From a virus (lineage: Duplodnaviria > Caudoviricetes): 64,000 bases of DNA. The translations under genes and the position numbers were made by a program. Shown here piece by piece: positions 426-60,946 of this stretch. The stretch lies in IMG/VR virus record IMGVR_UViG_3300011116_001227, one strand, 5' to 3'. Position 1 is the stretch's first letter; the number at the start of each line of letters is the position of its first letter. The notes beneath the pieces were generated by a model, which was not told the origin of the DNA, did no database searches, and saw only the letters and a list, made by a program, of their open reading frames with translations.

Positions 426-728
426 ATGAAGATCACAACATCTCAACTCAAAAAGATCATCGCAGAAGAAGTTAAGAAAGCAATCATTGGTGAAGCCATG
501 GAGGCCGGCCCGGTTGGATCGGCAGAACTTCAAACCATGCTCGATGTGGTTTGTGATGGATTCAAGGCCCAATTCGATCCCAAGGATCCCAGCATGGATG
601 CCAGCGGTGGTAAACCAGTTTGGGATCAACAATGCGAAACGGCTTGTGAAGTTCTAGGTGAAAAAATCCAGGAACTCATCATGCAGGTTGAAGAAGATCT
701 TCACCTCGGGCAATTCTACCAGGAATGA
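426..728 (+). CDS. putative virion/internal head protein with MKIT-QL-IIxEE leader
   Basis: N-terminus MKITTSQLKKIIAEEVKKAIIGEA; motif shared with many ORFs in the window. Confidence 0.65.
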   Translation: MKITTSQLKKIIAEEVKKAIIGEAMEAGPVGSAELQTMLDVVCDGFKAQFDPKDPSMDASGGKPVWDQQCETACEVLGEKIQELIMQVEEDLHLGQFYQE

Positions 729-732
729 AATC

Positions 733-1413
733 ATGAAGATCACAGTTTCACAACTCCGTAAGATCATCCGAGAAGAGGTTGAGAAAAACCTAACCGAAGC
801 CAACTTCAAAGTTGGTGATAAGGTAACGGAAAAGGGAACCGATTCAGGTTGGTGGGAGATCCTAGAATTAATTCCCGATAATAGAACAGGTAAAACCGTT
901 GCCAAATTACAAATGTTTCAACCCGTGGGCGGTAAGAAACCTATCACACACGTAACAACGGATAAACTTGCTAAAGTTAGAGAATCCCTATCTCGATCGG
1001 CTCCCCTAAAGGATGGCGGTGTTGTTAACCGAGATTCAGGAGAAATTCTGGATATGGATACCGTTCCTCCTCAATACCTCGATCATGTTGAAATCGATGC
1101 GGAAGGTTATACCACACTTCCAAATGAACAATTCGAACAACTCCGCGGGGAATTAAAAGGATTATCTGCAGGGAAACCAAAGAAACAGTGGAAAGCCCCT
1201 TTCCAACTTAACAGAGAATCCCCAGATCCTCAGGATGTTCATGATGAATTTCTTAAGTTAAGGGATTATGATGGTGAAGTTCCCCTCAAAATGCTGGCGG
1301 CCGGTTTAGGGGTAGAACCCAACCAAATCGATTGGAACGGAACCGGGTTAAGGGTGATCAACGGTGTTGTTACTGAACTCCTCGGTGATCCTCCGTACAA
1401 AAACTCCCCATGA
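733..1413 (+). CDS. putative virion protein with MKIT leader and SH3/KOW-like segment
   Basis: Internal ATG 733 gives MKITVSQLRKIIREEVEKNLTEANFKVGDKV. Confidence 0.65.
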   Translation: MKITVSQLRKIIREEVEKNLTEANFKVGDKVTEKGTDSGWWEILELIPDNRTGKTVAKLQMFQPVGGKKPITHVTTDKLAKVRESLSRSAPLKDGGVVNRDSGEILDMDTVPPQYLDHVEIDAEGYTTLPNEQFEQLRGELKGLSAGKPKKQWKAPFQLNRESPDPQDVHDEFLKLRDYDGEVPLKMLAAGLGVEPNQIDWNGTGLRVINGVVTELLGDPPYKNSP

Positions 1414-1508
1414 TCCCATCAAGCCCGGCCGCTGAGGAATACCTCAACGGTGTGGATTTAAGTTCCTGTTCTAAACAAAGTTATACAACCAGCAACTTTC
1501 ATTCCTAA
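1410..1508 (+). pseudogene. truncated copy of the start of ORF 1866..2066
   Basis: MIPSSPAAEEYLNG shares SSPAAEEYL and 27/28 nt with 1882..1909, then diverges and stops after 32 codons. Confidence 0.5.
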
Positions 1509-1510
1509 GT

Positions 1511-1873
1511 ATGCAAAGGATACTTGTTTGTGGTTCTAGGGATTGGAATGATATTGGTGTGATTCGCGAAAGGTTGGAAAAATTTCCCAATAATTCGATT
1601 GTGATTCACGGTGGCTGTAGGGGTGCTGACATCATATCTGGGATGATTGCTGAGGAACTTGGCATGGAAGTGTTGTGTTTCCCCGCCGAGTGGGAAAAAC
1701 ATGGAAAAAGTGCTGGACCAAAGAGAAACCAAAGGATGCTGGAGGAAGGTGTTCCAACCCTCATTTTGGCTTTTCATGATGATATCAGTTCATCAAAGGG
1801 AACACTTGACATGATCAAACGTGCCAAAAACAAGGGAATCAATGTAGAATTGATCGGTTCAAAACATGGATGA
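1511..1873 (+). CDS. SLOG-family (DUF2493/YspA-like) protein
   Basis: RILVCGSRDW, VIHGGCRGAD, PAEWEKHGKSAGPKRNQRML, SKGTLDMI are typical of this family. Confidence 0.8.
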   Translation: MQRILVCGSRDWNDIGVIRERLEKFPNNSIVIHGGCRGADIISGMIAEELGMEVLCFPAEWEKHGKSAGPKRNQRMLEEGVPTLILAFHDDISSSKGTLDMIKRAKNKGINVELIGSKHG

Positions 1874-2066
1874 TAACCAGACATCCAGCCCGGCCGCTGA
1901 GGAATACCTTCGGATCCTCTGGGATGTTGAGATGAAAAACACGGATGAACACGAGTGGCAAACAACCCTCGATTCACTGTGGAACCAATTATCCCCAGAG
2001 GATATCAGGATCATTGAGGAACGGCACGAGGCCTTCTTCAAGCTCCTCTACCCGGATGAACCCTAA
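1866..2066 (+). CDS. hypothetical protein
   Basis: 66-aa acidic ORF overlapping the upstream stop. Confidence 0.55.
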   Translation: MDDNQTSSPAAEEYLRILWDVEMKNTDEHEWQTTLDSLWNQLSPEDIRIIEERHEAFFKLLYPDEP

Positions 2067-2094
2067 CACAAAAGGTAACTCTAGGTTTACTTTC

Positions 2095-2124
2095 GTGCAA
2101 AACCTCGCGGGGCGATGATAGAAT
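2095..2124 (+). promoter_or_regulatory. sigma70-like promoter candidate GTGCAA-N18-TAGAAT (extended -10 TG)
   Basis: Intergenic; same GTGnAA-N18-TAnnnT geometry at 3428, 5726 and 50271 (minus). Confidence 0.4.
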
Positions 2125-2148
2125 AGATTGTAGGATATGATTATCTCT

Positions 2149-2490
2149 ATGAAGATTATGTTAAACCAACTACGCAGGATAAACAAGGAAGAAGTTCAAA
2201 AAACCATGGATGAGATGGGAGCGCCAAGAGCAAAGCGGCCAAGGGCTCTTCCTGGCCAAGTTACGGATCCTGAAGAATTAAAACTCGCGATGAAGGATGC
2301 TTACGGCTTCGATCTACCTTATATACCTGTTCCTGGCAATCCAAACATGGCGTTGGTGAGAGATATGGAGATCCCAGGCCAGTTTTTCCCCTGGAAATAT
2401 GAAGCATCCGGCCCCTATCGCGGGTGGAGTGAAAGTGATGGGCCCGTTGTTAAGATGGGTAAAAAGTCCCGCGGGGTGATGATAAAATAA
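2149..2490 (+). CDS. hypothetical protein with degenerate MKI-QL-I-EE leader
   Basis: ATG 2149 gives MKIMLNQLRRINKEEVQK. Confidence 0.6.
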   Translation: MKIMLNQLRRINKEEVQKTMDEMGAPRAKRPRALPGQVTDPEELKLAMKDAYGFDLPYIPVPGNPNMALVRDMEIPGQFFPWKYEASGPYRGWSESDGPVVKMGKKSRGVMIK

Positions 2491-2494
2491 AATC

Positions 2495-2719
2495 ATGGCT
2501 CCACAACCCGGTGATCTAATCCAAATCCTGTCAGATACCCACGGCTACCCGGATAACTGGATCCGCGGCACAGATCCAACTAGATTTCCCATCGGCTCCA
2601 CAGGCATCCTTCTGGAAATAAAACCTCCTTCATATAATGAACCCCGAACCTTTTTCAAGGTTGCAACCCCTCAAGGCTCAGTATCCATCTTCGAAGGATT
2701 CACAATCGTAATCAAATGA
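2495..2719 (+). CDS. small SH3/KOW-like hypothetical protein
   Basis: PGDLIQI...GILLEI...FKVATPQG pattern. Confidence 0.5.
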   Translation: MAPQPGDLIQILSDTHGYPDNWIRGTDPTRFPIGSTGILLEIKPPSYNEPRTFFKVATPQGSVSIFEGFTIVIK

Positions 2720-3224: not shown

Positions 3225-3433
3225 TGTCACGTTCATCCCACATCTGTCCCGGTGACCTGGTCATCATCACCAACTTCGCTCCTGAATACAACCCGGAAAG
3301 AGTTGGGATCATCCTCGACCGCTGCATTCCATACAAGAACGGTTACAAGTATGCCGTCCTCACGGACCGCGGAGAAGAATTCATAGAAGATGTTTTCCTC
3401 TTCAATCAAGAACCGTGTCAACCCACCGTGTAA
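3221..3433 (+). CDS. small SH3/KOW-like hypothetical protein
   Basis: CPGDLVII...GIILD...YAVLTDRG; start at ATG 3221 overlapping the upstream stop. Confidence 0.5.
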   Translation: MMSRSSHICPGDLVIITNFAPEYNPERVGIILDRCIPYKNGYKYAVLTDRGEEFIEDVFLFNQEPCQPTV

Positions 3434-3468
3434 AAAATCAAAATAACGGATTAAGGTTATCAGAAGAC

Positions 3469-5115
3469 ATGATCACAAAATCTAGGAAGTTCTGGCTCTC
3501 ATTGACTGGCGGTCTGCTGGTCTCGACCTGTTTCTTTTCATACCCATATGTCCTCAGGTGGCAAATTGAGAAAAGAATCCCAGGCGTCCAATTCCAGGAT
3601 GCACACCTCTCAACCTCAGGGGTAACAATCACAGGGGTATCCCTAGACAAAGGTTGGGTCAAAGGCAACCTAGACTGTGTCTCATCAGACTTCCAGGGTC
3701 ACAACATCACAATCGACGGCGGTTCTCTTTCAGTAAACCTGGATGCCAGACCACATGGCAACGGTCAAGAAGATCATCAACGAAACATTCAGTTCAACAA
3801 CCTGACCCTCAAGGTCACCAAGGAAGATCACAACCTCTCGCTGGACGGTGTCAGGTCTGAAGATCACAAGGTCTGTTTCTCAGGGGCTCAGTTGGAGACA
3901 CCGTCAATCTCGGCCGGTCAAGGTTGTTTCGACAGAGAAACCCACACAGTCACGGTCGGGGAAGCCAACCTCAAACAACTCAAGATCATGGGTGCCGTGG
4001 TCACAGACCTTGTGGCCAACAAGATCACCTACAACACCAAAGAAAAGGTTGCAGAGGTGGACGGTGTCACGGCACAGATCATCTTCGAAAAACAAACTTT
4101 CTCAATTGAAACCAACGGAGTCAAGGCCTCTCGACATCCGGACACTGTCACCCTGGGATCTCTAAGGGTACGGCACCCGTGGTTGGCTTCAGACTGGATC
4201 ACCATGGAAAATGTGAAGGTCCAGCACGGCGAAAGGTGGGACCTGACGGTCGGCGGCAGTCATGTTCAGGTTGAACCAGGAACTCTAACTCTGTCAGGGT
4301 CCGAGACTTGTGACACGTGGATCGGTTCTCTACCAGTCAACCTCAAGGCATCTCCACTGGACAAGATCCACATGACAGGCCGGACCAGCTTCTCGATCGG
4401 ATTCAGACCAAAACCGTCCTTCTCTCTGAAGTCCGACTGCAGGGCAACCTGCAATTCACTTCCAAACCTAAGGAAACCATTCACCTACACAGCATACGGT
4501 CCAAAGGGAGAAAAGTTCCAAAGGGAGACCGGCCCGGGTTCTAAGGGTTGGGTCCCACTACGGATGATGGGTGACATGCCACTGGCCGTGACAACCATGG
4601 AAGATCCAGGCTTCGAACATCACAGGGGATTCATAACCCAGGCCTTCTTCAACAGCTTCACGGATAACTTGAAACAGGGCCGCTTTCTTCGGGGAGGAAG
4701 TACCTTAACCATGCAACTTGCCAAGAACCTGTGGCTCACCCGAGACAAGACCCTGGGCAGAAAAGTTCAGGAATTCTTCCTGGCCCAAGGAATAGAATCA
4801 TGTTATTCGAAGGATGAGATCATGGAACTATACCTGAACATTGTTGAATTTGGTCCTAACCAGTATGGGATTGGATCAGGTGCCCAGCATTGGTTTAAGA
4901 AGGGCCCAGGAGAACTAGTTCCGTCTGAGGCATTTTGGTTGGCCAGCATTCTACCTCGGCCCAGCAAGGCCCCGCCGCCGACCGATGAAGCTCTTAAGAG
5001 AATTGAGGGATTGATGAAACGGTTGGCCGATGACGGTAGGATACCTGATTTCAGTTTAGATGTTGTTGAAGATGATGCTGGAGGATCGGATGTTCAGCCG
5101 CAAATTGATCAATGA
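3469..5115 (+). CDS. membrane-anchored peptidoglycan transglycosylase (GT51, MtgA-like C-terminal domain)
   Basis: N-terminal TM; GT51 motifs EDPGFEHHRG, GGSTLTMQLAKNL, RKVQE, KDEIMELYLN; no transpeptidase domain. Confidence 0.85.
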   Translation: MITKSRKFWLSLTGGLLVSTCFFSYPYVLRWQIEKRIPGVQFQDAHLSTSGVTITGVSLDKGWVKGNLDCVSSDFQGHNITIDGGSLSVNLDARPHGNGQEDHQRNIQFNNLTLKVTKEDHNLSLDGVRSEDHKVCFSGAQLETPSISAGQGCFDRETHTVTVGEANLKQLKIMGAVVTDLVANKITYNTKEKVAEVDGVTAQIIFEKQTFSIETNGVKASRHPDTVTLGSLRVRHPWLASDWITMENVKVQHGERWDLTVGGSHVQVEPGTLTLSGSETCDTWIGSLPVNLKASPLDKIHMTGRTSFSIGFRPKPSFSLKSDCRATCNSLPNLRKPFTYTAYGPKGEKFQRETGPGSKGWVPLRMMGDMPLAVTTMEDPGFEHHRGFITQAFFNSFTDNLKQGRFLRGGSTLTMQLAKNLWLTRDKTLGRKVQEFFLAQGIESCYSKDEIMELYLNIVEFGPNQYGIGSGAQHWFKKGPGELVPSEAFWLASILPRPSKAPPPTDEALKRIEGLMKRLADDGRIPDFSLDVVEDDAGGSDVQPQIDQ

Positions 5116-7578: not shown

Positions 7579-7953
7579 TTAATATTCGTCGTCGTCTTCA
7601 AAGTCTTCAAAGTCTTCAAAGTCTTCTTCATAGTCCCAATCTTCATCTTCGTGTGACATGCTGTACTTGGGTTCCATATAAGAAAAAACTTGGCTGAGAT
7701 TTTCTTGAGCAACAGAGATGTGATCTTGAACCCATGCAGGAAGTTGGTCTCCATCGTCGAGCATGTCACACAGCATGAATGCCATTTTTTTAATACGATA
7801 AAGTTGTGATTTTGACATCCCACCTTCAGCGTCGTATGGTTCACCATCCTCAGCGCCATGTAAGAAGAAATCAAAATCTTCTTCTGGCTCATCGACTACT
7901 GTAATTGATGACTCTTGCAGCATTCTTTTTAATTGCTTGGCTGTAATTTTCAT
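7579..7953 (-). CDS. putative virion protein with MKIT leader, conserved helical domain and acidic tail
   Basis: ATG 7953 MKITAKQLKRMLQES; core EGGMSKSQL...DQLPAWVQD paralogous to 58172..58774; tail FED x3 from a 9-nt tandem repeat. Confidence 0.65.
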   Translation of the reverse strand: MKITAKQLKRMLQESSITVVDEPEEDFDFFLHGAEDGEPYDAEGGMSKSQLYRIKKMAFMLCDMLDDGDQLPAWVQDHISVAQENLSQVFSYMEPKYSMSHEDEDWDYEEDFEDFEDFEDDDEY

Positions 7954-11972: not shown

Positions 11973-13601
11973 TCATGATTCATCTTCAACAATTACAGCA
12001 TCTAACGACAAGAAAGTGCAAGTTACAGATGCTGCATTTCTAAGAGCTGTTCTTGTTACCTTAACAGGATCTATAATTCCTGCATCGATCATGTCGACAT
12101 ACTGGTCTACCGATGCATTGTAACCTAAGTTACTAGATCCCGATTCGCTCTTTTTTCTAATTAAATCATTAACAATTACTTCATGACTCTTGTCGGCATT
12201 CTCAGAAATTCTTTTAATCGGAGCTAAACACGCGTCAGAAATAATTGAGCCTCCGACGCCGAATTCTTTCCAGCCTTCATTTTTATTGTCTGATAATTGA
12301 CGCCAAATTTCAAAAAGTGCCATGCCTCCGCCAGGAACAATTCCTTCTTCGACAGCAGCACGCGTTGCATTTAAAGCATCTTCAATTCTATACTTTGTTT
12401 CAATAATCTCTAATTCTGTAGCTCCTCCAACTTTAATGACAGCGACTCCTGAAGATAATCTTGCAATTCTAAGACGAAGTCTATCAGCTTCTTCTTGAGT
12501 TAACGTGATATCCTGAAGCTGAGACCTTAAATTGGCAACGTGATCGTCAATTGACAACTTTGTGCCACCTGTGCCTACCATTGTGGTTGATTTAGCATCA
12601 ACCAAAAAACTCTTCAGAGATCCAAGATCAGACATTGTTGTCTTGTTGAGAGTCAATCCTGTTGATGGTGAAACAATTTTAGCACCAGTCATAACAGAAA
12701 TGTCTTTTATAAATTCTTCTCTACTTTTTCCATATCCTGGTGATTTAATTGCAACAACGGGAAGATTAGCATTCACTCGGTTGACAACTAAACCCTGCAG
12801 AGCTTCGCCATCTACTTCATCTGCAATAACTAACAGTGGGACTTTTGACTGCATTACTTTTTCAAGCAGTGGTATCATGTCGCGCATGCTGTTGAGTTTC
12901 TGATCAACTAATAAAACTTTTGCATCGCTATAAGCAGCATGCATCTTTTCAGAATTCGTCACAAAGTAAGGACTCAGATATCCTCGATCAATCTGCATTC
13001 CTTCAACGATATCGAGTTGCGTAGACGTACTCTTGGCTTCTTCTACCGTGATAATTCCGTCGTATCCCACTTTTGTCATTGCGTCTGCGATCGTTTCTCC
13101 AATTGTACGATCACCGTTCGCGCTGATTGTTGCAATTTGTGCAATTTCTTCTGAAGTAGTTAACTGCTTCGCAGTCTCTTTTAACATTGAAGAAACAACT
13201 TCGGCAGCCTTGCTGATTCCACTGCAGAGTTCTTTTGCATCGTATCCGGCCTCTAAGAGCCTTAGACCAGATTTTACCATAGAAAAAGTCAAAACAGTCG
13301 CTGTCGTAGTACCATCTCCCGCAATATCATTTGTCTGTGTCGCAGCTTCTCTAATTAATGCAGCACCCATTCTTTCAATTGGAGTCTTAAGATGTATAGA
13401 CTTGCTGACAGTAACACCGTCTTTTGTGATAATTGGCTGAGAATTAGGATCTTGCTGAATTAGAACACATTTACCTCGCGGACCCAAAGTACAACCAACA
13501 GCATGCGCAACTGTCTGCATACCTTGAAAAAGAGATTTTCTTGCGCCTGACGAAAAAATAACTTTAGTAGATCTAACTTCTTCAATCTTATTACTATACA
13601 T
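11973..13601 (-). CDS. groEL: group I chaperonin GroEL
   Basis: TLGPRG, ITKDGVTV, AGDGTTTATVL, VAVIKVGG, GIVPGGG, GIIDPVKV; no GGM tail. Confidence 0.95.
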   Translation of the reverse strand: MYSNKIEEVRSTKVIFSSGARKSLFQGMQTVAHAVGCTLGPRGKCVLIQQDPNSQPIITKDGVTVSKSIHLKTPIERMGAALIREAATQTNDIAGDGTTTATVLTFSMVKSGLRLLEAGYDAKELCSGISKAAEVVSSMLKETAKQLTTSEEIAQIATISANGDRTIGETIADAMTKVGYDGIITVEEAKSTSTQLDIVEGMQIDRGYLSPYFVTNSEKMHAAYSDAKVLLVDQKLNSMRDMIPLLEKVMQSKVPLLVIADEVDGEALQGLVVNRVNANLPVVAIKSPGYGKSREEFIKDISVMTGAKIVSPSTGLTLNKTTMSDLGSLKSFLVDAKSTTMVGTGGTKLSIDDHVANLRSQLQDITLTQEEADRLRLRIARLSSGVAVIKVGGATELEIIETKYRIEDALNATRAAVEEGIVPGGGMALFEIWRQLSDNKNEGWKEFGVGGSIISDACLAPIKRISENADKSHEVIVNDLIRKKSESGSSNLGYNASVDQYVDMIDAGIIDPVKVTRTALRNAASVTCTFLSLDAVIVEDES

Positions 13602-15652: not shown

Positions 15653-16819
15653 ATGAGCATCTTTCGCGAACACAAAACAGTGGCTGATAGAACGGCGTCG
15701 GATCGTCGAAGGCACAAACAAAAAATCGAAAAGGCAATCCGCGAAGGCATCCACCACATCGTCGCGGATGAAAGCATTATCGGACAAGACGGCAAACAAA
15801 AGTACAGAATACCTGTCCGCGGAATCAAAGAATATCGATTCGTTTACGGAAGCAACGGCAAGCAGGTCGGATCAGCTCCTGGTAAAGATGTCAAAAAAGG
15901 TCAAAAGATCGGCGACAAGCCCGAAGAGCAAGGTGGACAACCCAATAAAGCTGGTGGCGACAGGGGAGAAGAGTATTACGACGTTGAAGTTACTCACGAA
16001 GAGCTGGCTCAATACCTCTTCGCGGAACTAAAGCTTCCAGAGCTCCAAAAGAGGCAACTCGCCAACATCGACACCGAAAAACTTAAGCGTAAGGGTTATC
16101 GTCCACAGGGTATCATGCCTCGTCTCGATCGGAAAAAATCAGCGATTGCTCGAATTAAGCGCATGAAAGCAGCTGGTTTTGATCCTGAAAAGGCAGAAGA
16201 GGGTGAAACATTCTCTTTCCATGAAGATGATCTCATGTATCGTCACTATAAGATGAAAAAGAAACCCTGCACGAATGCAGTTATCTTCTTCGTGATGGAC
16301 GTCAGCGGATCCATGTCTCAAGACAAGAAGTTTCTTGCGAGATCTTTCTTCTTCTTACTTTATCAATTTATTCGTCTTAAATACGAAACAATAGAAATTA
16401 ATTTTATTTCTCACGACACAGAAGCACATGAAGTCGAAGAAAAAGATTTCTTTACAAAAGCTTCAACTGGCGGAACAAAGGCATCTTCAGCGATGTTTCT
16501 TGTTAATAACATTATTGAAAAAAGATATCATCCATCTTCGTGGAACATCTATCTCTTCCAGTGCTCTGATGGAGATAACTTCCAAGAAGATAACGCTAAA
16601 TTTTTAGAACAAGTAAATAAAATTACTTCAGTTGCTCAACTCTTTGGTTACTGCGAGATAGAGCCTGAAACTAGTTGGATGTCTGATCCTGGCAAGCTAT
16701 TTCAGCTACTTCGACCTCTTCAGAGCAACAAACTGAAGGAAGTTAGAATTCAAAAGAAAGAAGAGGTCTGGCCGGCATTCATGAGTCTCATGGGTGGAAC
16801 TTCGACGGAGAACGATTGA
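15653..16819 (+). CDS. yeaH: YeaH/YhbH (DUF444) family vWA protein
   Basis: DRRRHKQKI, IPVRGIKEY, MDVSGSM, LARSFFFLL, GGTKASSA, SWNIYLFQCSDGDN. Confidence 0.9.
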   Translation: MSIFREHKTVADRTASDRRRHKQKIEKAIREGIHHIVADESIIGQDGKQKYRIPVRGIKEYRFVYGSNGKQVGSAPGKDVKKGQKIGDKPEEQGGQPNKAGGDRGEEYYDVEVTHEELAQYLFAELKLPELQKRQLANIDTEKLKRKGYRPQGIMPRLDRKKSAIARIKRMKAAGFDPEKAEEGETFSFHEDDLMYRHYKMKKKPCTNAVIFFVMDVSGSMSQDKKFLARSFFFLLYQFIRLKYETIEINFISHDTEAHEVEEKDFFTKASTGGTKASSAMFLVNNIIEKRYHPSSWNIYLFQCSDGDNFQEDNAKFLEQVNKITSVAQLFGYCEIEPETSWMSDPGKLFQLLRPLQSNKLKEVRIQKKEEVWPAFMSLMGGTSTEND

Positions 16820-18126: not shown

Positions 18127-18159
18127 ACTTCACCTTCAAGAAAGAATAGATATAACATC

Positions 18160-28349: not shown

Positions 28350-28748
28350 TCACCTAAGACCGTAGAGACCACGTTTTCTGTCGATTGTGTTGAGATATTC
28401 AGAATTATTTACATCCTCAGGTTCAGAAGGACGCTCTATAGGTGAACGATATCCACGTGGATATTTAAATGCTAGATTCTCTAGATCTGTTTGGATAAGA
28501 CTGTTATAAGCATCTATTCCCTCGTCTCCGTATTTGACCTTAATATCATTTATGATTGGTTTCATTAATGTAGAATAAGATTCAACGGTACGAGTTGGAT
28601 CTTTTAATAAAGCAGCAATTTTATTTATATTCTCGTGACTTAAAATTATCTGCTTGACTTCTTCTCTAACGTCGACTTCATTTTCATTTAAAGACTTTGA
28701 AATCTCTTCTTTGATGATCTTGCGTAGTTGATTGACTGTAATTTTCAT
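28350..28748 (-). CDS. putative virion protein with MKIT leader
   Basis: MKITVNQLRKIIKEEISKSLNENE. Confidence 0.65.
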   Translation of the reverse strand: MKITVNQLRKIIKEEISKSLNENEVDVREEVKQIILSHENINKIAALLKDPTRTVESYSTLMKPIINDIKVKYGDEGIDAYNSLIQTDLENLAFKYPRGYRSPIERPSEPEDVNNSEYLNTIDRKRGLYGLR

Positions 28749-28785: not shown

Positions 28786-29298
28786 TTATAAACTAGAATG
28801 TCGTGTGAGATCTACGTCAGCTGTACCATTACCTAAATTTTTGACTGAAAATTGCACGTCTTCGTTCACGGCGAATGGATTAGAAACTGCAATTGCAACG
28901 ACTGGCACTGAATTAGTGTCAGCACAATGCGATATGACAATTAAATCTGCTATGGGAGAATTTGAGATTATTAATTTTTGTTTTTTCCCAGTATCAAATC
29001 TGACGGGAATATATGAAGATTCTGTTTCTTGACCGTCGATCTCTATCTTAATAGAATTTCCTGATTGATCTCCTGCTTGAGGATTCCAATAGGTGTCGAC
29101 AATCACTCTCATTGTTTTTCCAGATGCACCAGACATGATTATAGCAAAACCGTCCGGCCCTAATCCTTCTGAGTCTTCAGCTTTACCTTTAGACAATGAA
29201 AATGTGTATTCTACAGACCAAGGACGTTCTTTTACAATTCTAGACTTTTCTATCGCTTCTCTAATAATAGATCGCAACGCAGAAACTTTTATTTTCAT
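28786..29298 (-). CDS. L-type (legume/ConA-like) lectin-fold protein with MKI-LR-IIRE leader
   Basis: DGFAII and VIVDTYWNP resemble the ADGFAF and VAVEFDT.N motifs. Confidence 0.55.
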   Translation of the reverse strand: MKIKVSALRSIIREAIEKSRIVKERPWSVEYTFSLSKGKAEDSEGLGPDGFAIIMSGASGKTMRVIVDTYWNPQAGDQSGNSIKIEIDGQETESSYIPVRFDTGKKQKLIISNSPIADLIVISHCADTNSVPVVAIAVSNPFAVNEDVQFSVKNLGNGTADVDLTRHSSL

Positions 29299-46192: not shown

Positions 46193-49100
46193 TTATTCGA
46201 CTAAAGCTCTCATTTTATACACTGATGTAGAAAAACCCCAATTTGCATCGTTTGATGCTTGAGCTAACCACAATGTGTAAGGTTTGATTTCTTCTTTTGG
46301 TGTGCCCCATGCACGCAACCAAGCAGTCCTATGTTCATCATCGACGGCTTTAATTCGATAGAAGATCTTTCCATTTTTAGTCTTCTTCACCTGCACTTCT
46401 GCAGCGCAGAACCAACCAATACCTTCTGTCCCTGGTTCAATATCATGAAGTTTTGGAACTTGTTTTTCTGCAATCTTGGACATAACTGCAGGTGGAAACA
46501 AGAGATCTGAATCTACAGACTGTGTCAATTCTTGACACATCAGAATCTTTTCTTCACGCGACCAATCCTCAATTTCAGCAAGAGAAGCTAACGTCACATC
46601 AAGGAAAGCTTCAATCTTCTCACCAGCTTTAGCTTTCTTCTTGAGTTGTGATGCTGTCAATCCGTAAAGGCCTCTACGAAGCATCTCGTAATTTTTGTCA
46701 TCTGTTAATGCCAACAAAAGTTGCTTGTGATTATTAATTTTTCCGACGCTAAAATCTTCGAGCGATGACAATGCATCGATCTTGCAGAGTGCTGACAGAG
46801 CTGTCTTATTCATCTTGCTGTGGCGCCAATTACCTTCATTATCATACAACATCTCCTGGAGATTTTTGTAAGGACGAAGTTGCATGATCTCTTCGACTGC
46901 AGTCGAACCAATGCCCTTGACCGAGCTGAGGGGCGGAACGAAAGCGGCTGCTTCTTCAGAATACTGCCACTCTTTTCCTGAGTAGTTCACATCGATCTTA
47001 GAGAAACTGTAACCGAGCGCTTTGATCTCGGAGATAGTCTTAGCAAGACCTTTTGGATTTGTGTTCTCAGACTGCAGCGCCGTCGCGAGCCATTCTTTCT
47101 CGTAGTGGGTGTGGAGCCACGCAGCGTAGTAGGAGTCGATCGCATATGCTAAACTATGGGATTTATTGAAGCAATAGACTGACATGTTGTCAATTGTCTG
47201 CCAGAGCGGCTCTGTTACTTCAGGACCGACGCCGTGAATGCGCTGTGCACCTTCGATAAACTTCTGTTTCGCGATCTCTTTTTCGGACGTCTTCTTGTCC
47301 AAAGTGTCAAGAGACTTCTTGACAAGCGTCTTGCGTAGCTGATCTGCTTCACCCGGTGTGAAGCCTCCAAGCTTCTCAGCGAGTAACATAAATTGTTCCT
47401 GGTACACTACGAAATTCCTCGTCGGCCCTAGCACCTGTTCGATGATAGGGTGTGGATAATCGATGTGTTCTTTCTTCCTTGCCTCGACGAAAAGGTTGTG
47501 GACATTAGCTTTAAGTGGGCCAGGTCGATAGATCGCAGTGATGGCAGTCAAGTCTTCGATTTTCGTTGGCTTCACTGCTTTGCAGAACTTCCTCGCTCCC
47601 TCTGCTGTCATCTGAAACACAGAGACGAATGCTCCATCTTGGTAGACGTGCTTCCAGACAACAGGATCGTCCTGCTTCACATAACGACAGTTGAGGTGTT
47701 TGTCAAAGAATTCCCTAACGTCCAAGAAAGTAGGATTCGGATTGCCTTGCTTCACGAGGATCCGGCTGATGCAATTCTCCACGTCCTTGAGGAGAGTGAG
47801 ACCCAGGAAGTCGAACTTCAGGAAGCCGTTGTCCTCCAGGTTGCGGAAGTTCATGCCCTCCGTCCACGGTGTCTGAAGTTCACCTCGCACACCGATGATG
47901 GGCATATTCGCCGCGAGGTCGTCGGGATCGGCCAATAGAACGCCACCGGCGTGTCGACCCACCGATCGGTTCTGCATAAACAGGGTTTCGACGTGGGCAG
48001 CCACCTCTGGGTACTTCTCCATGAAGGCCGTGTACTTCGGCGAGTACTTCATGCAGTCCTCATGCTTCAGCACGAAGACCGACTTCTCCTGGTCCTCGTC
48101 TCGAGCCAGCGGCATCACCTCGTCCTGGAGAGGGCCGGTCATCTCGTTCACCTCCTCGAAGGGCACGCCGTAGATCTTGGCGATGTCCTTGACGAGGGAC
48201 TTGAGCTTCAGGGTGTTGAAGTTGGACACCGGGATCACGGCGTCATCGCCGAACAGAGTTCGTGCCGCATCGATAAGGACATCCCTGTCACCTGCGTCTG
48301 TATCGATATCCGGAAAGCTCACTCGGTGTCGTCCCAAAAATCTGCTCCAAAGCAAACCGTATGGTATCGGATCGATCTGCGTGATGCCTAACAGGAAGTT
48401 GACGAGCGATCCCGCACCACTCCCGCGGCCGCTTCCAAAGAGTGTCTTTTCCTTCGCAAGATTGAACACTTTATACATCGTAATGAAGTACGAAGCACAC
48501 TTCAAATACTTGATGTCACCGAGTTCGTATTTTGCTCTTTCCACATACGCAGGCTTGTCGTCTAAGCCTTCACGCTTCAGGCCCTCCATCACAAGCTCGG
48601 TAAGTTGCTTGAACGCAGATTTCTCAGGTGTGTCGACCTTCGGTAGCTTCGGTTTCGTGTCCACCCAGGTGTCTTCGCACTCGTTCCACGTGATGTCGTG
48701 GGTGCGTTCGATGGAGTCACGCACCAATTCTTCAGAACCCTTATAGAACTCGTACTGCTCGTAGGACCGCTTGTACTCATCCCACATCTGGGACGCGTTC
48801 TTTGGATATAGTTCGCACTTGAGGTCTTCGAACTTAGGCAGTGTTGCACCATCAAGTTTGGCACCCATCCAGCCGAGCTTCTTGTACAGCTCACGCGCTT
48901 GCCACTTTGAGGGATCTGGGTAGTGAGAATCACACGTGGAGACGAGCGGCACGCCTGTCTTCTTAGAAAGATCGATCAAGTACTTGTTGACTGTGTGTTG
49001 TTTCTCAAGCTTGTTGAACTGTAGCTCAAGATAAAAGTTTTTGTTGCCCACGGCGCTTTGGAATCTGTCAGTAAGATTCTCAAGATCTGTCATAATCTCG

Positions 49101-50227
49101 TCGTGCGGCTTATTCTGTGCTTCACCTAGAAGAATCTTGCCGCTGTAGATTCCGCCTAGACAGTTATGAACTACAACACCGTTCGCAAAGAAATTGTGGT
49201 TGTCTTCGACAGTAATATCGTAGACATCTTCTGTGTAGTCCAATTCTTCAACTTCGATCACGTCAACGAACTTGTAGGTTTCCATATTATTTTTCATCCA
49301 AGAAACAATCTTGACAGGCATGTTCTCCTTGAGCTCATCGGCACGAAGCCAGCCCTTGTCTGTCAAGACTTGATGGTCTGGTGTGAGTCTTACTTCTTTA
49401 CCATCAGCAGTCTTGAGCTTGACGATCTTTGCAGATGTCCTCGTCTTATCTCCCCACAAGACACGTTTGAACTGCAGTTCTTTGCTTTCTTCATTGAAGG
49501 AAAGAACTATGGGATTCTCCCCTGCCCTGTATCTCTCGATGACTCTTAGCAATGTCTCGGTACCCATGTCTGTTACAAGCTCAGCATCACCCGTAAGACA
49601 CGCCGTCGACCAGATGATGTCTGACCCGTATTTTTGGAGTAGCTCAAAGTCGATTCGAGGATAACGATAGAAGCCGTACTTGTAAGATGCCTTGACAAGT
49701 CTGAAGATGTTCGCAAGACCGTTCTGATTCTTAGCTACAGCAACAAGGTGATAGCGTCGTTGCCAGTCTCTGGATGACACGTCGACTGTCTTGGTTTCAT
49801 TCTCATCTTCAACGACGTGGCCGCCCTGTTCATCCTCTTCTTCGCCCGGATCGGCATCGATGTCTGTAGGAGTCTTGGCACGCTTCTCCATCTCAGCAGC
49901 AGTCTTTGCATCCTTAACGCTCTGCTTATGGGCTTCATAATCAATAGCCCACTGCTTCAGTGAGGGCACAAAGTAGAATTCCACACCGTAGAGCTGTCGA
50001 TACTTCTTGCCCTTCTTCTGTACCTTCAGAGCTGCAGATCGAGCATGTGCTAGACCGTTGCCATTACCATGATCTGTGAGTGCCCAGGCATCCATACCTT
50101 GTGACTCAGAGGTGACAAAGGCAATGTGATCGGCTGGATAGCCGAGTCCGTCGAAGGTGCTAAATCCGCTGTGGCCGTGGAAAGAAACAAATCTGTCAGG
50201 TGGGCGAATAAGATCTAATTTTGACAT
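46193..50227 (-). CDS. dnaE: DNA polymerase III alpha subunit with mini-intein
   Basis: PHP HGHS..STFDG, ALTDHG, GRGSGAGSL, FPDIDTD, GRHAGG, KFDFLGL, FNKSHS. Confidence 0.95.
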   Translation of the reverse strand: MSKLDLIRPPDRFVSFHGHSGFSTFDGLGYPADHIAFVTSESQGMDAWALTDHGNGNGLAHARSAALKVQKKGKKYRQLYGVEFYFVPSLKQWAIDYEAHKQSVKDAKTAAEMEKRAKTPTDIDADPGEEEDEQGGHVVEDENETKTVDVSSRDWQRRYHLVAVAKNQNGLANIFRLVKASYKYGFYRYPRIDFELLQKYGSDIIWSTACLTGDAELVTDMGTETLLRVIERYRAGENPIVLSFNEESKELQFKRVLWGDKTRTSAKIVKLKTADGKEVRLTPDHQVLTDKGWLRADELKENMPVKIVSWMKNNMETYKFVDVIEVEELDYTEDVYDITVEDNHNFFANGVVVHNCLGGIYSGKILLGEAQNKPHDEIMTDLENLTDRFQSAVGNKNFYLELQFNKLEKQHTVNKYLIDLSKKTGVPLVSTCDSHYPDPSKWQARELYKKLGWMGAKLDGATLPKFEDLKCELYPKNASQMWDEYKRSYEQYEFYKGSEELVRDSIERTHDITWNECEDTWVDTKPKLPKVDTPEKSAFKQLTELVMEGLKREGLDDKPAYVERAKYELGDIKYLKCASYFITMYKVFNLAKEKTLFGSGRGSGAGSLVNFLLGITQIDPIPYGLLWSRFLGRHRVSFPDIDTDAGDRDVLIDAARTLFGDDAVIPVSNFNTLKLKSLVKDIAKIYGVPFEEVNEMTGPLQDEVMPLARDEDQEKSVFVLKHEDCMKYSPKYTAFMEKYPEVAAHVETLFMQNRSVGRHAGGVLLADPDDLAANMPIIGVRGELQTPWTEGMNFRNLEDNGFLKFDFLGLTLLKDVENCISRILVKQGNPNPTFLDVREFFDKHLNCRYVKQDDPVVWKHVYQDGAFVSVFQMTAEGARKFCKAVKPTKIEDLTAITAIYRPGPLKANVHNLFVEARKKEHIDYPHPIIEQVLGPTRNFVVYQEQFMLLAEKLGGFTPGEADQLRKTLVKKSLDTLDKKTSEKEIAKQKFIEGAQRIHGVGPEVTEPLWQTIDNMSVYCFNKSHSLAYAIDSYYAAWLHTHYEKEWLATALQSENTNPKGLAKTISEIKALGYSFSKIDVNYSGKEWQYSEEAAAFVPPLSSVKGIGSTAVEEIMQLRPYKNLQEMLYDNEGNWRHSKMNKTALSALCKIDALSSLEDFSVGKINNHKQLLLALTDDKNYEMLRRGLYGLTASQLKKKAKAGEKIEAFLDVTLASLAEIEDWSREEKILMCQELTQSVDSDLLFPPAVMSKIAEKQVPKLHDIEPGTEGIGWFCAAEVQVKKTKNGKIFYRIKAVDDEHRTAWLRAWGTPKEEIKPYTLWLAQASNDANWGFSTSVYKMRALVE
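49163..49600 (-). mobile_element. 146-aa mini-intein (no endonuclease) in the dnaE PHP domain
   Basis: CLTGD block A, TPDH block B, VYDITVEDNHNFFANGVVVHN-C terminus; exteins rejoin as STA-CLGG. Confidence 0.92.
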
Positions 50228-51365: not shown

Positions 51366-51632
51366 TCACATCATGTATTCTTTAAACAGCTCGGCCAATC
51401 CGTCCCGCGCGAAGTCTTTTGCTTCTTCACTGTCATACTCCTCGGCGATAGCATTCTGCTCTATGTTCATACGCAAAGATTCTAAAGCAGCTTTTGCTGC
51501 GTCTATTTTAGTAATATCTGCAAGTGATCCTAAAGCAAGTCTGCCTGGAGTTAAAGTGTCGTCGCCCTCGTTGAGAACCTTTGAGACCTCTTCTGCAATG
51601 ATCTTGCGGAGTTGTGATGATGTTAATTTCAT
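51366..51632 (-). CDS. putative virion protein with MKLT leader
   Basis: MKLTSSQLRKIIAEEVSKVLNEG. Confidence 0.65.
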   Translation of the reverse strand: MKLTSSQLRKIIAEEVSKVLNEGDDTLTPGRLALGSLADITKIDAAKAALESLRMNIEQNAIAEEYDSEEAKDFARDGLAELFKEYMM

Positions 51633-58153: not shown

Positions 58154-58171
58154 GCTTTACAAACTAAAAGT

Positions 58172-58774
58172 TCACTGATCTTCTTCTGTCGAATCTGTTT
58201 CAGAAACGAATCCCCAGTCACCGCGCATCCAAGCTCTCATTTCCTCTTGGGTGACACGTGCATGAGCCTCATTGAGGTTATTGGACTTACGATTGCGAGA
58301 TTCCCCAACTGGCATATCCATTCCGGCAGGCTCGACTGCAGCTGGAGCTTCTTGATAGGATCTCATCTTCTCATCGCCCATGAGGTAACCATGGACATGT
58401 TGAAGATCGTTATGCGAAGTTGCCACAAGGTCCTGAACCCATCCAGGAAGCTGGTCTTCAGAGTCGAGAAGTTCACAAATGTCACCGGCCATCTGTTTCA
58501 TGGAAGCCATACGAGACTTGACCATGTATCCTTCATCATCGTGAGGATGGCCTTCGTCTGAACCATGGAGGAATTCCTGATGATCGTGTCCAGGTTCTGG
58601 CATTGAATCACCGGAGACGTAACCCCAGTCACCTTTCTTCCATGCAGCGACTTCATCCTCAGTGATTCGAGTCATGGCCTCGGAAAGTTTCTTCTTGCCT
58701 GAAGTAGCCTTTTTGACTTCTTCACGAACGATGTTACGTAATTGTGCTGGTGTTAGTTTCATGTTGTTCCTCAT
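58172..58774 (-). CDS. putative virion protein with MKLT leader; paralog core of 7579..7953
   Basis: MKLTPAQLRNIVREE; EGYMVKSRM...DQLPGWVQD; duplicated LxEA..R.T.EE..AW..GDWG.VS. Confidence 0.65.
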   Translation of the reverse strand: MRNNMKLTPAQLRNIVREEVKKATSGKKKLSEAMTRITEDEVAAWKKGDWGYVSGDSMPEPGHDHQEFLHGSDEGHPHDDEGYMVKSRMASMKQMAGDICELLDSEDQLPGWVQDLVATSHNDLQHVHGYLMGDEKMRSYQEAPAAVEPAGMDMPVGESRNRKSNNLNEAHARVTQEEMRAWMRGDWGFVSETDSTEEDQ

Positions 58775-59010
58775 GGTCTTGGCGGGTAGATACCATCGAC
58801 GCAGATTATTGTCTTTAATCCATTAATGTCTGCAATCTTTGGAAGATTGAAAGTATGGACACCGTCTCCACCAAATCTATTTCCGAGTAGAGAGAACAAG
58901 GCTGCATACTGTTGTGTTTGTAATGTAGAACCGTCACAAGGCATCCAACCCTGAGGAACGAAGTTTCCTGCGAAGTACATGATTGTTGCTAACATTGGAT
59001 CCATAGTCAA
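58771..59010 (-). CDS. phage tail collar domain protein
   Basis: FAGNFVPQGWMPCDG..L...QYAALFSLLG.RFGGDG..TF.LP. Confidence 0.85.
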   Translation of the reverse strand: MTMDPMLATIMYFAGNFVPQGWMPCDGSTLQTQQYAALFSLLGNRFGGDGVHTFNLPKIADINGLKTIICVDGIYPPRP

Positions 59011-59014
59011 TTCC

Positions 59015-59569
59015 TCAGATTAGTGGCTTAGAGATTCTCTGCTTCAAGAGATAAACATGTCCCTCGTGTCTGTCTTCGATTCCTGCAAGCATATTGTCGA
59101 GGCCATGTGTCATCATCCCGTACTCTCTAATCGATTCGCAGATTTGCTTCATTGTTGAGAGAAAATTTAACTCTGCAGACAAAGATTTTCGTGCAAGATC
59201 AGATTCTCGAGGAATTGTAGATGCAGATCCGAGTCCTGTGATTAATTTAAGAAGCTGTGAATGTTGTAATTGAAGATCAACATTTGCAGTGCATCCAAGA
59301 CCAATCGCTTTTTCTGCAAGACCATCGATCTCATTGACTGTAGCTTCGTAAAGACGTTGAAACAAGAGATGATCTCCGTAAAAGGGATCACCCATTGCAG
59401 TCCAGTGGTGATTCTGATGAAGAGCGTAGAGATACTTTAAATGAACAATTGCAACAGAGATCTGTGGATAAGGAATTCCTCCCCACTCTGCAATCATATT
59501 ATCAGTCAGAATGTTAAGATTGGGCTCAACTGTTATAACAAACGTTGCATTCTCTTTAAGGTCTCTCAT
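59015..59569 (-). CDS. Dps/ferritin-like protein
   Basis: HQNHHW...FYGDHLLFQRLYE...IDGLAEKAIGLG. Confidence 0.75.
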   Translation of the reverse strand: MRDLKENATFVITVEPNLNILTDNMIAEWGGIPYPQISVAIVHLKYLYALHQNHHWTAMGDPFYGDHLLFQRLYEATVNEIDGLAEKAIGLGCTANVDLQLQHSQLLKLITGLGSASTIPRESDLARKSLSAELNFLSTMKQICESIREYGMMTHGLDNMLAGIEDRHEGHVYLLKQRISKPLI

Positions 59570-60699
59570 TTTTTCACCAATGCAAATTCAATAGCTGTGT
59601 CTAATCCATAAGTCCAGTCGATTCTCGAATTAGCTCCGCGGAATACAGCTCTATTGTTCCAACCTTGAACATACTTGTCTAATGCTTTTTCAGAAGAAGA
59701 AGTCCACGTTGTTCCTCGTGGTAGGCGACCAGAAGTAGGAACAGAGGCTTCCTGCAGTTCACCTGTTTCTTCATCAATAATTTCTTGAATTATTGTATGC
59801 TTGATTTTAAAAAGATTTTCTGCAGCTTCTACGATTGAAGATCTCGTGCTGTTTTCTAGCATCTGACTTACTGGATCTGTGAAGAATTCTTCTTCTAGAA
59901 TTGGCATTACTTTAGTTTCTTCTTCTGTAGATTCGTTCAGTAAATTGTGATGAATGGATTTGAAGTATGATTCTTCAAGAACTCCGCCAGAGCCGACAAG
60001 GATGTCAACCTCTTGACGAAGCTTCATAGGATCAATCTTCACTCCGCTAGTAGCATAAATGCTTGAGCATAATCTCGAGACAGCGAGGACCTTCCAGTTG
60101 CCGTCAAATCTACCCTTATGATCATCATAAATCTTCTTGGCAGTCTTCTTGTACCACGCATCAGTGAGGTCTTCATCGCCGTAACCATCGAGAACTTCGC
60201 TGATAGGACCGTCTCCATAAATGTCGAATTTGCTATCGAATTCTTTGGGATCAGGAATACCGGCTTCAAAAAGTTTTTTGGATTTCGCTATTGTTGCTAA
60301 CTGATCGTCTGATGGAAATCTTGATAGAACTTCAGACAACTGAACGTAAGTTAATCTTTTGGCAACAGCACAACGAATACTCGAGTCTTTGTCAGACAAG
60401 AACTTAATTGCATATTTTTCAGGTAATAAACGTGCAGCAAGTTTTCTTGCTTCTTTGTTCGTATCTGCAGCTGCTAGAAGAGTTGAAACTTTGATAGAAC
60501 CCACGGGAAGATCAATTCCTCGAGATTCCATCACACTCAACTTGTCGTTCGCAGCAATAAAAATTTGACGAGGATCATTCGACACCTCAACAGACGGACC
60601 AAAAACTTGAGAGACTTCGCGAGCTAACTGAAGAGCAGATTTCTCTTTCTTCATAGCTTCTTTAACGATTCCCTGTAGCTTCTTTAGCTTAAGTTGCAT
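59566..60699 (-). CDS. putative virion protein with leader variant and LRV/HEAT-like repeat
   Basis: KLQGIVKEA; DKDSSIRCAVAKRL; LFEA and LLNES sites. Confidence 0.55.
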   Translation of the reverse strand: MQLKLKKLQGIVKEAMKKEKSALQLAREVSQVFGPSVEVSNDPRQIFIAANDKLSVMESRGIDLPVGSIKVSTLLAAADTNKEARKLAARLLPEKYAIKFLSDKDSSIRCAVAKRLTYVQLSEVLSRFPSDDQLATIAKSKKLFEAGIPDPKEFDSKFDIYGDGPISEVLDGYGDEDLTDAWYKKTAKKIYDDHKGRFDGNWKVLAVSRLCSSIYATSGVKIDPMKLRQEVDILVGSGGVLEESYFKSIHHNLLNESTEEETKVMPILEEEFFTDPVSQMLENSTRSSIVEAAENLFKIKHTIIQEIIDEETGELQEASVPTSGRLPRGTTWTSSSEKALDKYVQGWNNRAVFRGANSRIDWTYGLDTAIEFALVKK

Positions 60700-60751
60700 T
60701 CTAAAGACACTCCTAATTGCTAAATATCAATCAACTCAAAAGGTTGAAAAA

Positions 60752-60946
60752 TTAGTCTAGCTTCATATCCTTTAGCCACTTTTTTATCGCAGCTTTCCAT
60801 TCGTCTTTGACGTAGACGCTTTTGCTATTAAATGAAGGATCATCTATCAGTTTTTTATTATACGCTTCTTCAGGATGAGATCCTCCACGCACAGTTTCTT
60901 TTATGATTTGTCTGATGACAATTCTCAATAATTCGTGACTGTGCAT
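60752..60946 (-). CDS. small protein with leader variant
   Basis: LLRIVIRQIIKET. Confidence 0.5.
   Translation of the reverse strand: MHSHELLRIVIRQIIKETVRGGSHPEEAYNKKLIDDPSFNSKSVYVKDEWKAAIKKWLKDMKLD

What the first reader, a model, noticed from the sequence alone, without database searches (positions are those of the whole stretch)
426..60946. Portable N-terminal leader MK(I/L)TxxQLRxIIxEE on many unrelated ORFs: candidate capsid-targeting, protease-cleaved tag
Seen: close copies start the ORFs at 426, 733, 7953(-), 28748(-), 51632(-) and 58762(-), with looser variants at 2149, 29298, 31733, 34212, 40686, 41736, 60699 and 60946. Some copies are similar even at DNA level (caactccgtaagatcatc / caactccgcaagatcatt / caactacgcaagatcatc), while the downstream domains are unrelated. 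The helix is usually followed by an L/I-x-E site (LTEA, LNEN, LNEG, LSEA, LNES). Known: T4 internal proteins enter the prohead via a short N-terminal targeting sequence (IPIII MKTYQEFIAE) removed by gp21, which cuts after L/I-x-E. Inference: this is a reusable addressing tag that loads diverse cargo into the head for ejection into the host. As far as I know no function has been assigned to this motif.
Basis: partly seen in the sequence, partly recalled or inferred. Interest (0 to 1): 0.85.

Follow-up and report, generated by a model that had tools for sequence, protein, structure and literature searches.

The report
Head-loading tag on phage proteins
Eight otherwise mostly unrelated small proteins of this uncultured freshwater T4-like jumbo phage start with the same 16-residue helix. 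Related phages also put this helix on three small proteins encoded beside the head-maturation protease, so it is probably a tag that loads proteins into the forming head, but no experiment shows this.

Summary
Eight ORFs (starts 426, 733, 2149, 7953-, 28748-, 29298-, 51632-, 58762-) begin with M-K-[IL]-T-x-x-Q-L-R-x-I-I-x-E-E-[VI]. They score 31-40 bits; everything else in the window scores under 6. Only one of the six other "looser variants" (60946) is supported, and only by orthology. Conservation is at protein level: half of the identical residues use different codons, and the upstream DNA is unrelated.

A profile built from the window's eight leaders alone also recognises three conserved small proteins in related phages. 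These flank a T4 gp21-type prohead protease, between terminase, portal, scaffold and capsid genes. Most leaders contain [LI]-x-E, the T4 gp21 cut motif, at residues 12-14, and a second such site is enriched near residue 22. About 2,700 protein clusters in public data carry the leader, and almost none has a known domain.

Best reading (about 0.55): a lineage-specific, longer functional analogue of the T4 capsid targeting sequence. Packaging, cleavage and ejection are untested. The leader shows no sequence homology to the T4 tag. I could not read this genome's own head module.

This scan found the same motif before in another genome (e1-5337456) and in other windows of this genome.

The parts
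426..728 (+). Leader gene, 100 aa; leader followed by IGE|A; acidic cargo (pI 4.1)
   Evidence: 37.0 bits. Ortholog in G010 is 75% identical and keeps the leader. pI.
733..1413 (+). Leader gene, 226 aa; leader ends LTE|A, then three modules. In relatives each module follows the leader directly.
   Evidence: 40.5 bits. 77 metagenomic homologues, none with a Pfam domain. The leader-to-module junction sits right after L-x-E.
2149..2490 (+). Leader gene, 113 aa (MKIMLNQLRRINKEEV; MDE|M); basic cargo
   Evidence: 36.1 bits. No ortholog in G010, G002 or L013.
7579..7953 (-). Leader gene, 124 aa, most divergent of the eight; very acidic cargo (net charge -28), paralogous to the cargo of 58172-58762
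   Evidence: 31.4 bits. Cargo homology E 7e-22. ATACTTA motif 43 nt upstream.
28350..28748 (-). Leader gene, 132 aa; leader ends LNE|N; helical-bundle cargo
   Evidence: 38.9 bits. In 20 aligned homologues, 16 of 18 invariant columns lie in residues 1-20. AF2 model: helix 5-23, then a bundle.
28786..29298 (-). Leader gene, 170 aa; flexible N-terminal helix plus L-type-lectin / ConA-like beta-sandwich
   Evidence: 33.3 bits. 60 homologous clusters. AF2 pLDDT 84.9: helix 5-17 at pLDDT about 56, sandwich mostly above 90. Foldseek matches legume lectins and ERGIC-53, probability 1.00, TM 0.55-0.64.
51366..51632 (-). Leader gene, 88 aa; leader ends LNE|G; acidic cargo
   Evidence: 39.5 bits. Only the leader finds matches in relatives. 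TATATTTA motif 33 nt upstream.
58172..58762 (-). Leader gene, 196 aa; LSE|A at residues 26-28; acidic cargo
   Evidence: 37.0 bits. Orthologs 86% identical in L004, L005 and L006 start at the MKLT Met. The G010 homologue is fused behind a second leader plus a Cys-rich module.
60752..60946 (-). Decayed leader, 64 aa (MHSHELLRIVIRQIIKE)
   Evidence: Only 2.9-7.8 bits here, but the G010 ortholog (52% identical) starts MQITIGQLRKMIRE and scores 34.5 bits.

Best explanation
The leader is an N-terminal addressing helix of about 16-22 residues. It brings proteins into the assembling prohead core of a clade of uncultured freshwater T4-like jumbo phages, and the phage's gp21-type prohead protease then removes it at [LI]-x-E (residues 12-14 and/or about 20-22). 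It is a longer, lineage-specific functional analogue of the T4 capsid targeting sequence.

Shown here:
- The module is real, strictly N-terminal, portable, and conserved at protein level.
- It also heads three conserved small proteins of the head-morphogenesis module in relatives.
- The clade has a T4-type protease with the catalytic His and Ser in place.
- The cut motif is embedded in the leader and enriched behind it.

Inferred: binding to the core, cleavage, and packaging.

Open: whether the cargo stays in the head and enters the host (about 0.3), or acts as auxiliary core material that is degraded and expelled.
For: 1. Eight leaders at 31-40 bits against under 6 for everything else, all at a start codon.

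2. Selection acts on the peptide. 50% of identical residues use different codons and the upstream DNA is unrelated. In the 28748 family, 16 of 18 invariant columns lie in residues 1-20, although overall identity falls to 38%.

3. Portability. There are 32 unrelated cargo families among 97 non-redundant leader proteins in the fetched loci. The leader joins different modules right behind L-x-E.

4. Head link. The related contig G002 has this gene order: TerL, 100-aa protein, portal, 284-aa protein, gp21 protease (PF03420, 86 bits), 140-aa protein, 81-aa protein, 176-aa protein, 667-aa acidic scaffold-like protein, gp23 capsid protein. A profile made only from the window's eight leaders scores these N-termini above the 99th percentile of G010 N-termini: the 81-aa family in 58/59, the 140-aa family in 47/61 and the 100-aa family in 33/44. 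The capsid, scaffold, 284-aa and 176-aa families score 0.

5. The protease matches solved T4 gp21 (5JBL, E 3.4e-14). The catalytic His and Ser align with the residues mutated in the crystal construct.

6. [LI]-x-E with E at position 14 occurs in 27 of 32 cargo families. A second [LI]-x-E with its E at positions 17-30 occurs in 20 of 32, against about 16% expected. In 28748 homologues with a deletion, SLNE is replaced by NLGE, so the site is kept.

7. Four proteins with leader-like N-termini in relatives also end in the scaffold's own C-terminal tail, ERW-x-[KR]-LAGI-[IV]-K.

8. AF2 models show a detached N-terminal helix ahead of a folded domain.

9. Cargo has no known domains: none of the 77 homologues has one, and only 8 single-member Pfam family hits occur among 148 representatives.

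10. T4 precedent: the CTS is the only conserved part of very diverse internal proteins, and gp21 cuts after L/I-x-E (PMC3012670, PMC9026906). T4 ip genes are likewise scattered among non-structural genes, as the leader genes are here.
Against: - There are no virion, cleavage or expression data. No cultured phage carries the leader.
- The leader profile does not match the T4 IP leaders, and the flanking small proteins show no homology to T4 gp67, gp68 or gp22. Calling them 'prohead core proteins' rests on position and size only.
- The head-module evidence comes from relatives. This genome's own head module lies outside the window and I could not fetch it.
- The E14 site is part of the motif itself, so its presence is not independent evidence. 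The second site is missing in about a third of families.
- No shared late promoter was found, and there is no T4-type TATAAATA.
- Most cargo is acidic, unlike the basic T4 internal proteins.
- One cargo is a lectin-like fold, which in phages is more usual on the outside of virions.
Confidence: 0.55

Rival explanations
1. The helix is a general docking or oligomerisation element. It attaches accessory proteins to some assembly other than the head interior (outside of the capsid, neck, another complex), or simply pairs the proteins with each other, and it is not cleaved.
For: The helix is amphipathic with mixed charges, typical of protein-protein helices. One cargo is a lectin-like sandwich, a fold common in decoration and fibre proteins. 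The E14 'site' may just be part of a helix motif. A third of families lack a second L-x-E.
Against: The three conserved carriers lie between terminase, portal, protease, scaffold and capsid genes, where T4 keeps its core proteins. The leader was not seen on any recognisable tail, neck or decoration protein in the complete genome G010. The second L-x-E is enriched about four-fold.
Confidence: 0.2
2. The shared N-terminus is a regulatory element: a translation-initiation context, a degradation or timing tag, or a recognition tag for the phage's own chaperonin. It is not an address.
For: The phage encodes a GroEL-type chaperonin and a weak J-domain-like protein next to the leader genes. AAA or AAG as the second codon is common in well-translated genes (established knowledge).
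Against: Conservation extends to residue 16 and acts on the protein, with synonymous sites scrambled. There is no shared upstream sequence. This reading gives no reason for the tag to sit on the three head-module proteins, or for the L-x-E enrichment.
Confidence: 0.1
3. The leader is a relic of common ancestry: a paralogous family whose C-termini diverged beyond recognition, with no targeting role.
For: Two of the eight cargos are true paralogues. Small phage proteins evolve fast.
Against: The cargo folds differ (helical bundle against lectin-like sandwich). The leader is joined to different modules at one fixed junction. The leader is nearly invariant while the rest drifts. 2,682 clusters at 50% identity share only the leader.
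Confidence: 0.05

Closest known systems
Capsid targeting sequence (CTS) of phage T4 internal proteins IPI, IPII and IPIII, with related propeptides of Alt and gp24
   Same: A short peptide at the extreme N-terminus that starts MK. It ends in [LI]-x-E, is the only conserved part of otherwise diverse small proteins scattered through the genome, and occurs in a lineage with a gp21-type prohead protease (PMC3012670, PMC9026906).
   Different: 16-22 residues instead of 10 (19 in IPI). No detectable sequence homology (profile scores of -3 bits or less). Far larger repertoire: 8 in this window, about 17 in the 298-kb relative, 2,682 clusters in public data. It also heads three conserved head-module proteins. 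It occurs as tandem or internal copies within one ORF. Cargo is mostly acidic. Nothing has been tested experimentally.
N-terminal packaging signal of DarB (phage P1 Dar anti-restriction system)
   Same: An N-terminal stretch of about 30 residues that is sufficient to send a protein into the capsid for delivery to the host (PMC9024508).
   Different: P1 is not T4-like. The signal is known on one protein, not shared by many, and no shared consensus or protease site is described.
Propeptides of inner-body and ejection proteins of phiKZ, 201phi2-1 and SPN3US
   Same: Jumbo phages with many head-internal proteins, processed after Glu by a diverged gp21 homologue (PMC9026906, PMC5694885).
   Different: The cut motif there is S/A/G-x-E. 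The propeptides are long and family-specific, with no single portable leader.
Encapsulin cargo-loading peptides
   Same: A short portable peptide that loads diverse cargo into an HK97-fold shell (established knowledge).
   Different: Usually C-terminal, binds the shell directly, is not cleaved, and is not a virus.

Membership tests
T4-type capsid targeting sequence | Sits at the extreme N-terminus of otherwise unrelated proteins | tested here: met
   8/8 in the window; 37/37 hits of 30 bits or more start at Met; 32 unrelated cargo families.
T4-type capsid targeting sequence | Ends in the prohead-protease motif L/I-x-E | tested here: met
   E14 site in 27/32 families. A second site with E at positions 17-30 in 20/32, against about 16% expected. 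In the window: 6/8 and 5/8.
T4-type capsid targeting sequence | The genome encodes a gp21-type prohead protease and a T4-type head module | tested here: inconclusive
   Met in relatives: PF03420 in G002 and 80 loci, a match to 5JBL, plus gp20 and gp23. This genome's own module lies outside the window and could not be fetched. An unchecked scan note places it about 41 kb beyond the window.
T4-type capsid targeting sequence | Sequence similarity to MKTYQEFIAE or MKTFKEF | tested here: not met
   The leader profile does not match the N-terminal leader of any T4 IP: IPI scores -3.0 and -1.5 bits at internal positions, and IPII and IPIII give no hit. Only MK-, a Thr, a Gln and the I-x-E ending resemble each other by eye.
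T4-type capsid targeting sequence | Carrier proteins are found in proheads or virions with the leader removed | not testable with these tools
   No cultured relative carries the leader, and no proteomics is available.
T4-type capsid targeting sequence | The leader is sufficient to package a foreign protein | not testable with these tools
   Needs an experiment.
T4 prohead core proteins gp67, gp68 and gp22 (for the three flanking small proteins of relatives) | Sequence homology to T4 gp67, gp68 or gp22 | tested here: not met
   hhalign probabilities of 0.9% or less. No PHROG hit for the 140-aa protein; no Pfam hit above cut-off for the 140-, 81- or 100-aa proteins. Only position and size (81 and 140 aa against 80 and 141 aa in T4) agree.

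The most novel reading that the evidence does not exclude
The helix is an open 'plug-in' address for the prohead core. The three conserved core proteins and any cargo that acquires the 16 residues co-assemble through the same helix. ORFs with two or three leader-cargo units (seen in G010 and in many public proteins) would then be natural polyproteins that the head protease cuts into separate packaged proteins. This would give environmental T4-like jumbo phages an exchangeable repertoire of thousands of head-delivered proteins.
Probability: 0.2. Interest if true: 0.8.

Novelty: new variant of a known kind. Interest (0 to 1): 0.55.

Why it matters
If the reading holds, a 16-residue sequence marks which proteins an abundant, uncultured group of lake phages packs into its head. 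The packaged, and perhaps injected, protein set of these phages could then be read from sequence alone. That set is about 17 genes per genome and about 2,700 protein clusters in public data, almost all of unknown function. These proteins would be candidates for early-acting anti-defence or take-over factors. The tag itself could serve as a protein-packaging handle, as the T4 CTS does. The principle is already known from T4, so the gain is in scale, modularity and a testable marker, not a new mechanism.

Tried and rejected
- Complex prediction: scaffold (667 aa), protease (213 aa) and leader (40 aa), each with its own alignment, returned no verdict (score 0.00). It is not used as evidence either way.
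- Reading this genome's own head module failed. No whole genome is held. An exact 46-mer from the window end is absent from metagenome contigs. Walking by exact protein look-up ends in short Logan contigs.
- Mobile DNA cassette or shared promoter: rejected. Upstream DNA is unrelated and synonymous sites are scrambled.
- T4 late promoter TATAAATA: absent upstream of leader genes here and in G010.
- Resemblance of the capsid protein's N-terminus (MKHFTLDQLAQGIRE) to the leader: not supported, with profile scores of 1.6 bits or less.
- Homology of the flanking small proteins to T4 gp67, gp68 or gp22: none.
- Pfam and PHROG scans of leader proteins gave only sub-threshold noise.
- Cultured relatives: the nearest proteases are in Microcystis phage Mel-JY01 (51% identity) and Flavobacterium phage immuto (44%). 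Their neighbouring small proteins have only vaguely similar N-termini.
- Literature searches found no description of this leader.
Full report
**What the window is.** The window encodes a DnaE-type polymerase with an intein, a GroEL-type chaperonin, a PrkA/DUF444/SpoVR trio and a transglycosylase domain protein. It also encodes sugar-nucleotide and nucleotide-metabolism enzymes. It has no close relative among GenBank phages. No whole genome is held for it. The protein database shows the source contig is 210,040 bp. Earlier scan notes call it a large freshwater T4-like phage. I tested that through relatives, as described below.

**The observation.** All fourteen claimed starts exist. A profile built from the eight best leaders and run over every six-frame ORF gives those eight 31-40 bits (E 3.5e-11 to 2.6e-8). 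The next hit in the window scores 5.9 bits. A loose pattern finds eight matches in the six-frame translation, seven of them directly behind an ATG. So eight copies are solid: starts 426+, 733+, 2149+, 7953-, 28748-, 29298-, 51632- and 58762-.

The other six 'looser variants' score 1.6-7.4 bits even against a broadened profile. Only 60946 gains support, because its ortholog in a related complete genome has a 34.5-bit leader. Orthologs of 41736 and 60699 have N-termini of similar flavour, but this cannot be demonstrated.

The leaders are conserved as peptides, not as DNA. Half of the 255 identical residue pairs use different codons, and the 54 nt upstream are 29% identical, which is about random. 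Seven cargo families lie behind the eight leaders. The 7953 and 58762 cargos are paralogues.

**Anatomy of the leader.** I used one representative from each of 32 unrelated cargo families from the window and related loci.
- Consensus: M-K-[IL]-T-x-x-Q-L-R-x-I-I-x-E-E-[VI].
- L8 is invariant and position 9 is always R or K.
- Position 12 is I or V in 31/32, and E14 is present in 30/32.
- [LI]-x-E with its Glu at position 14 occurs in 27/32.
- A second [LI]-x-E with its Glu at positions 17-30 occurs in 20/32, against about 16% expected from the cargo background. Position 22 is Glu in 15/32.

In the 28748 family, 16 of the 18 invariant columns lie in residues 1-20, while overall identity falls to 38%. 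Homologues with a deletion replace SLNE by NLGE, so the site is kept.

In homologues of the 733 protein, the leader is joined directly to any one of at least four different modules. The junction sits right after L-x-E.

AF2 models show a separate N-terminal helix ahead of a folded domain:
- 28748 family: helix at residues 5-23, followed by a helical bundle.
- 170-aa protein: helix at residues 5-17 with pLDDT about 56, followed by a confident beta-sandwich. The sandwich matches legume lectins, ERGIC-53 and VIP36.

**Link to the head.** Leader-bearing genes occur on many IMG/VR contigs. One of these, G002 (69 kb), also carries a T4-type head module. Its gene order is: TerL, a 100-aa protein, gp20 portal with an HNH intein, a 284-aa protein, gp21 protease (PF03420), a 140-aa protein, an 81-aa protein, a 176-aa protein, a 667-aa acidic scaffold-like protein, and gp23.

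The protease finds 474 related loci, and 80 were fetched. In these, the 100-, 140- and 81-aa genes recur at fixed positions, and each starts with a leader-like sequence. Consensus N-termini:
- 100-aa family: MPKITISRLKKIIREELENLREG
- 140-aa family: MKLTKSQLKSIVKECLVEILSEG
- 81-aa family: MKLTSQLLKKIIEEEVAKFG

To avoid circularity, I scored their N-termini with the profile made only from the window's eight leaders.

| Family | Above the 99th percentile of G010 N-termini |
|---|---|
| 81-aa | 58/59 |
| 140-aa | 47/61 |
| 100-aa | 33/44 |
| Capsid, scaffold, 284-aa, 176-aa | 0 |

The protease matches solved T4 gp21 (5JBL, E 3.4e-14), and the catalytic His and Ser align. T4 keeps its core proteins gp67 (80 aa) and gp68 (141 aa) next to gene 21. 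I found no sequence homology between those T4 proteins and the clade's small proteins, so 'core protein' is an inference from position and size.

A further link is the scaffold-like protein's extreme C-terminal tail, ERW-x-[KR]-LAGI-[IV]-K. The same tail ends four proteins in relatives that start with leader-like N-termini.

**Scale.**
- The complete 298-kb relative G010 (direct terminal repeats; GroEL 68% identical to the window's) has about 17 leader genes.
- Several window leader genes (2149, 29298, 51632) have no ortholog in G010, which points to cargo turnover.
- A leader profile finds 2,682 clusters at 50% identity with E of 0.001 or better among 1.84 billion representatives.
- Of the 150 best hits, 137 have a leader at residue 1-3.
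- Of the same 150, 77 carry two or three leaders. This share is inflated because scores of repeated leaders add up. Internal copies usually start with Met.
- G010 holds a real example of a multi-leader ORF in DNA: leader, Cys-rich module, leader, cargo, in one reading frame.
- Only 8 single-member Pfam family hits occur among the 148 of those hits that I scanned, and none of the 77 homologues has a Pfam domain.

**Comparison with known systems.** In T4, the CTS (MKTYQEFIAE in IPII and IPIII; MKTFKEF...ITE in IPI) is the only conserved part of diverse internal proteins. It targets them to the scaffolding core, and gp21 removes it after L/I-x-E (PMC3012670, PMC9026906). The T4 ip genes lie among non-structural genes, as the leader genes do here.

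The present leader behaves like a CTS in position, portability, end motif and lineage. It is not a sequence relative of the T4 CTS. It is longer, far more widely used, and is also borne by conserved head-module proteins. Literature searches found no description of it. This scan noted the same motif earlier in another genome and in other windows of this genome.

**Limits.**
- No experiment bears on packaging, cleavage or ejection.
- The head-module evidence comes from relatives.
- The E14 site is part of the motif, so it is not independent evidence.
- No shared late promoter was found. A candidate motif, ATA[CT]TTA, precedes scaffold and 81-aa genes in relatives. In the window it precedes only two of the eight leader genes.
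- Most cargo is acidic, and one cargo is lectin-like.
- The complex prediction gave no verdict.

**Verdict.** This is a real, strongly conserved, portable N-terminal module. It is most likely (about 0.55) a lineage-specific analogue of the T4 capsid targeting sequence. That makes it a new variant of a known kind, at unexpectedly large scale.

Noticed in passing
L018:12153-14156 (G002 scaffold-like protein); G010 246636-247619; other loci: The scaffold-like protein's extreme C-terminus, ERW-x-[KR]-LAGI-[IV]-K, is conserved across the clade. The same tail ends four unrelated proteins that start with leader-like N-termini. It may be a second address, perhaps for binding the capsid protein.
   Followed up: partly
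G010 192339-193265 (L109:12339-13265, minus strand); P0170-P0194: Single ORFs carry two or three leader-cargo units, and internal leaders mostly start with Met. These could be natural fusions, polyproteins, or partly gene-calling effects.
   Followed up: partly
window 28786-29298 (-): The cargo of this leader gene is a confident L-type-lectin / ConA-like beta-sandwich, conserved in 60 protein clusters of the clade. This is an odd fold for a head-internal protein.
   Followed up: yes
window 7996, 51665, 31747, 41762, 60727 (all - strand); relatives: The motif ATA[CT]TTA lies about 25-45 nt upstream of scaffold and 81-aa genes in relatives. In the window it lies upstream of two leader genes and three 'loose variant' genes. 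It is a possible late-type promoter of the clade, but it is AT-rich and unproven.
   Followed up: partly
window 733-1413 (+): This protein is built from three modules after the leader. In other metagenomic proteins each module, or a zinc-ribbon module, follows the leader directly. This indicates module shuffling at the L-x-E junction.
   Followed up: partly
window 15653-20097 (+): A complete DUF444 (YeaH-like), SpoVR and PrkA gene trio sits in a phage. PrkA homologues occur in Thermus phages and some huge phages at about 30% identity.
   Followed up: no
window 46193-50227 (-); 11973-13601 (-); 3415-5115 (+): A DnaE-type polymerase III alpha subunit interrupted by an intein, a GroEL-type chaperonin, and a 566-aa protein with a glycosyltransferase-51 transglycosylase domain.
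   Followed up: no
window 27163-27762 (-): A 199-aa protein close to the leader genes has a weak, sub-threshold DnaJ J-domain match (22.6 bits).
   Followed up: no
L120 and L121 (Microcystis phage Mel-JY01, Flavobacterium phage immuto): In these nearest cultured relatives, by protease similarity, small proteins beside the protease gene have N-termini of similar flavour (for example MKKSQIVKAVQEVLEE). Related tags may exist in phages that can be grown and tested.
   Followed up: partly
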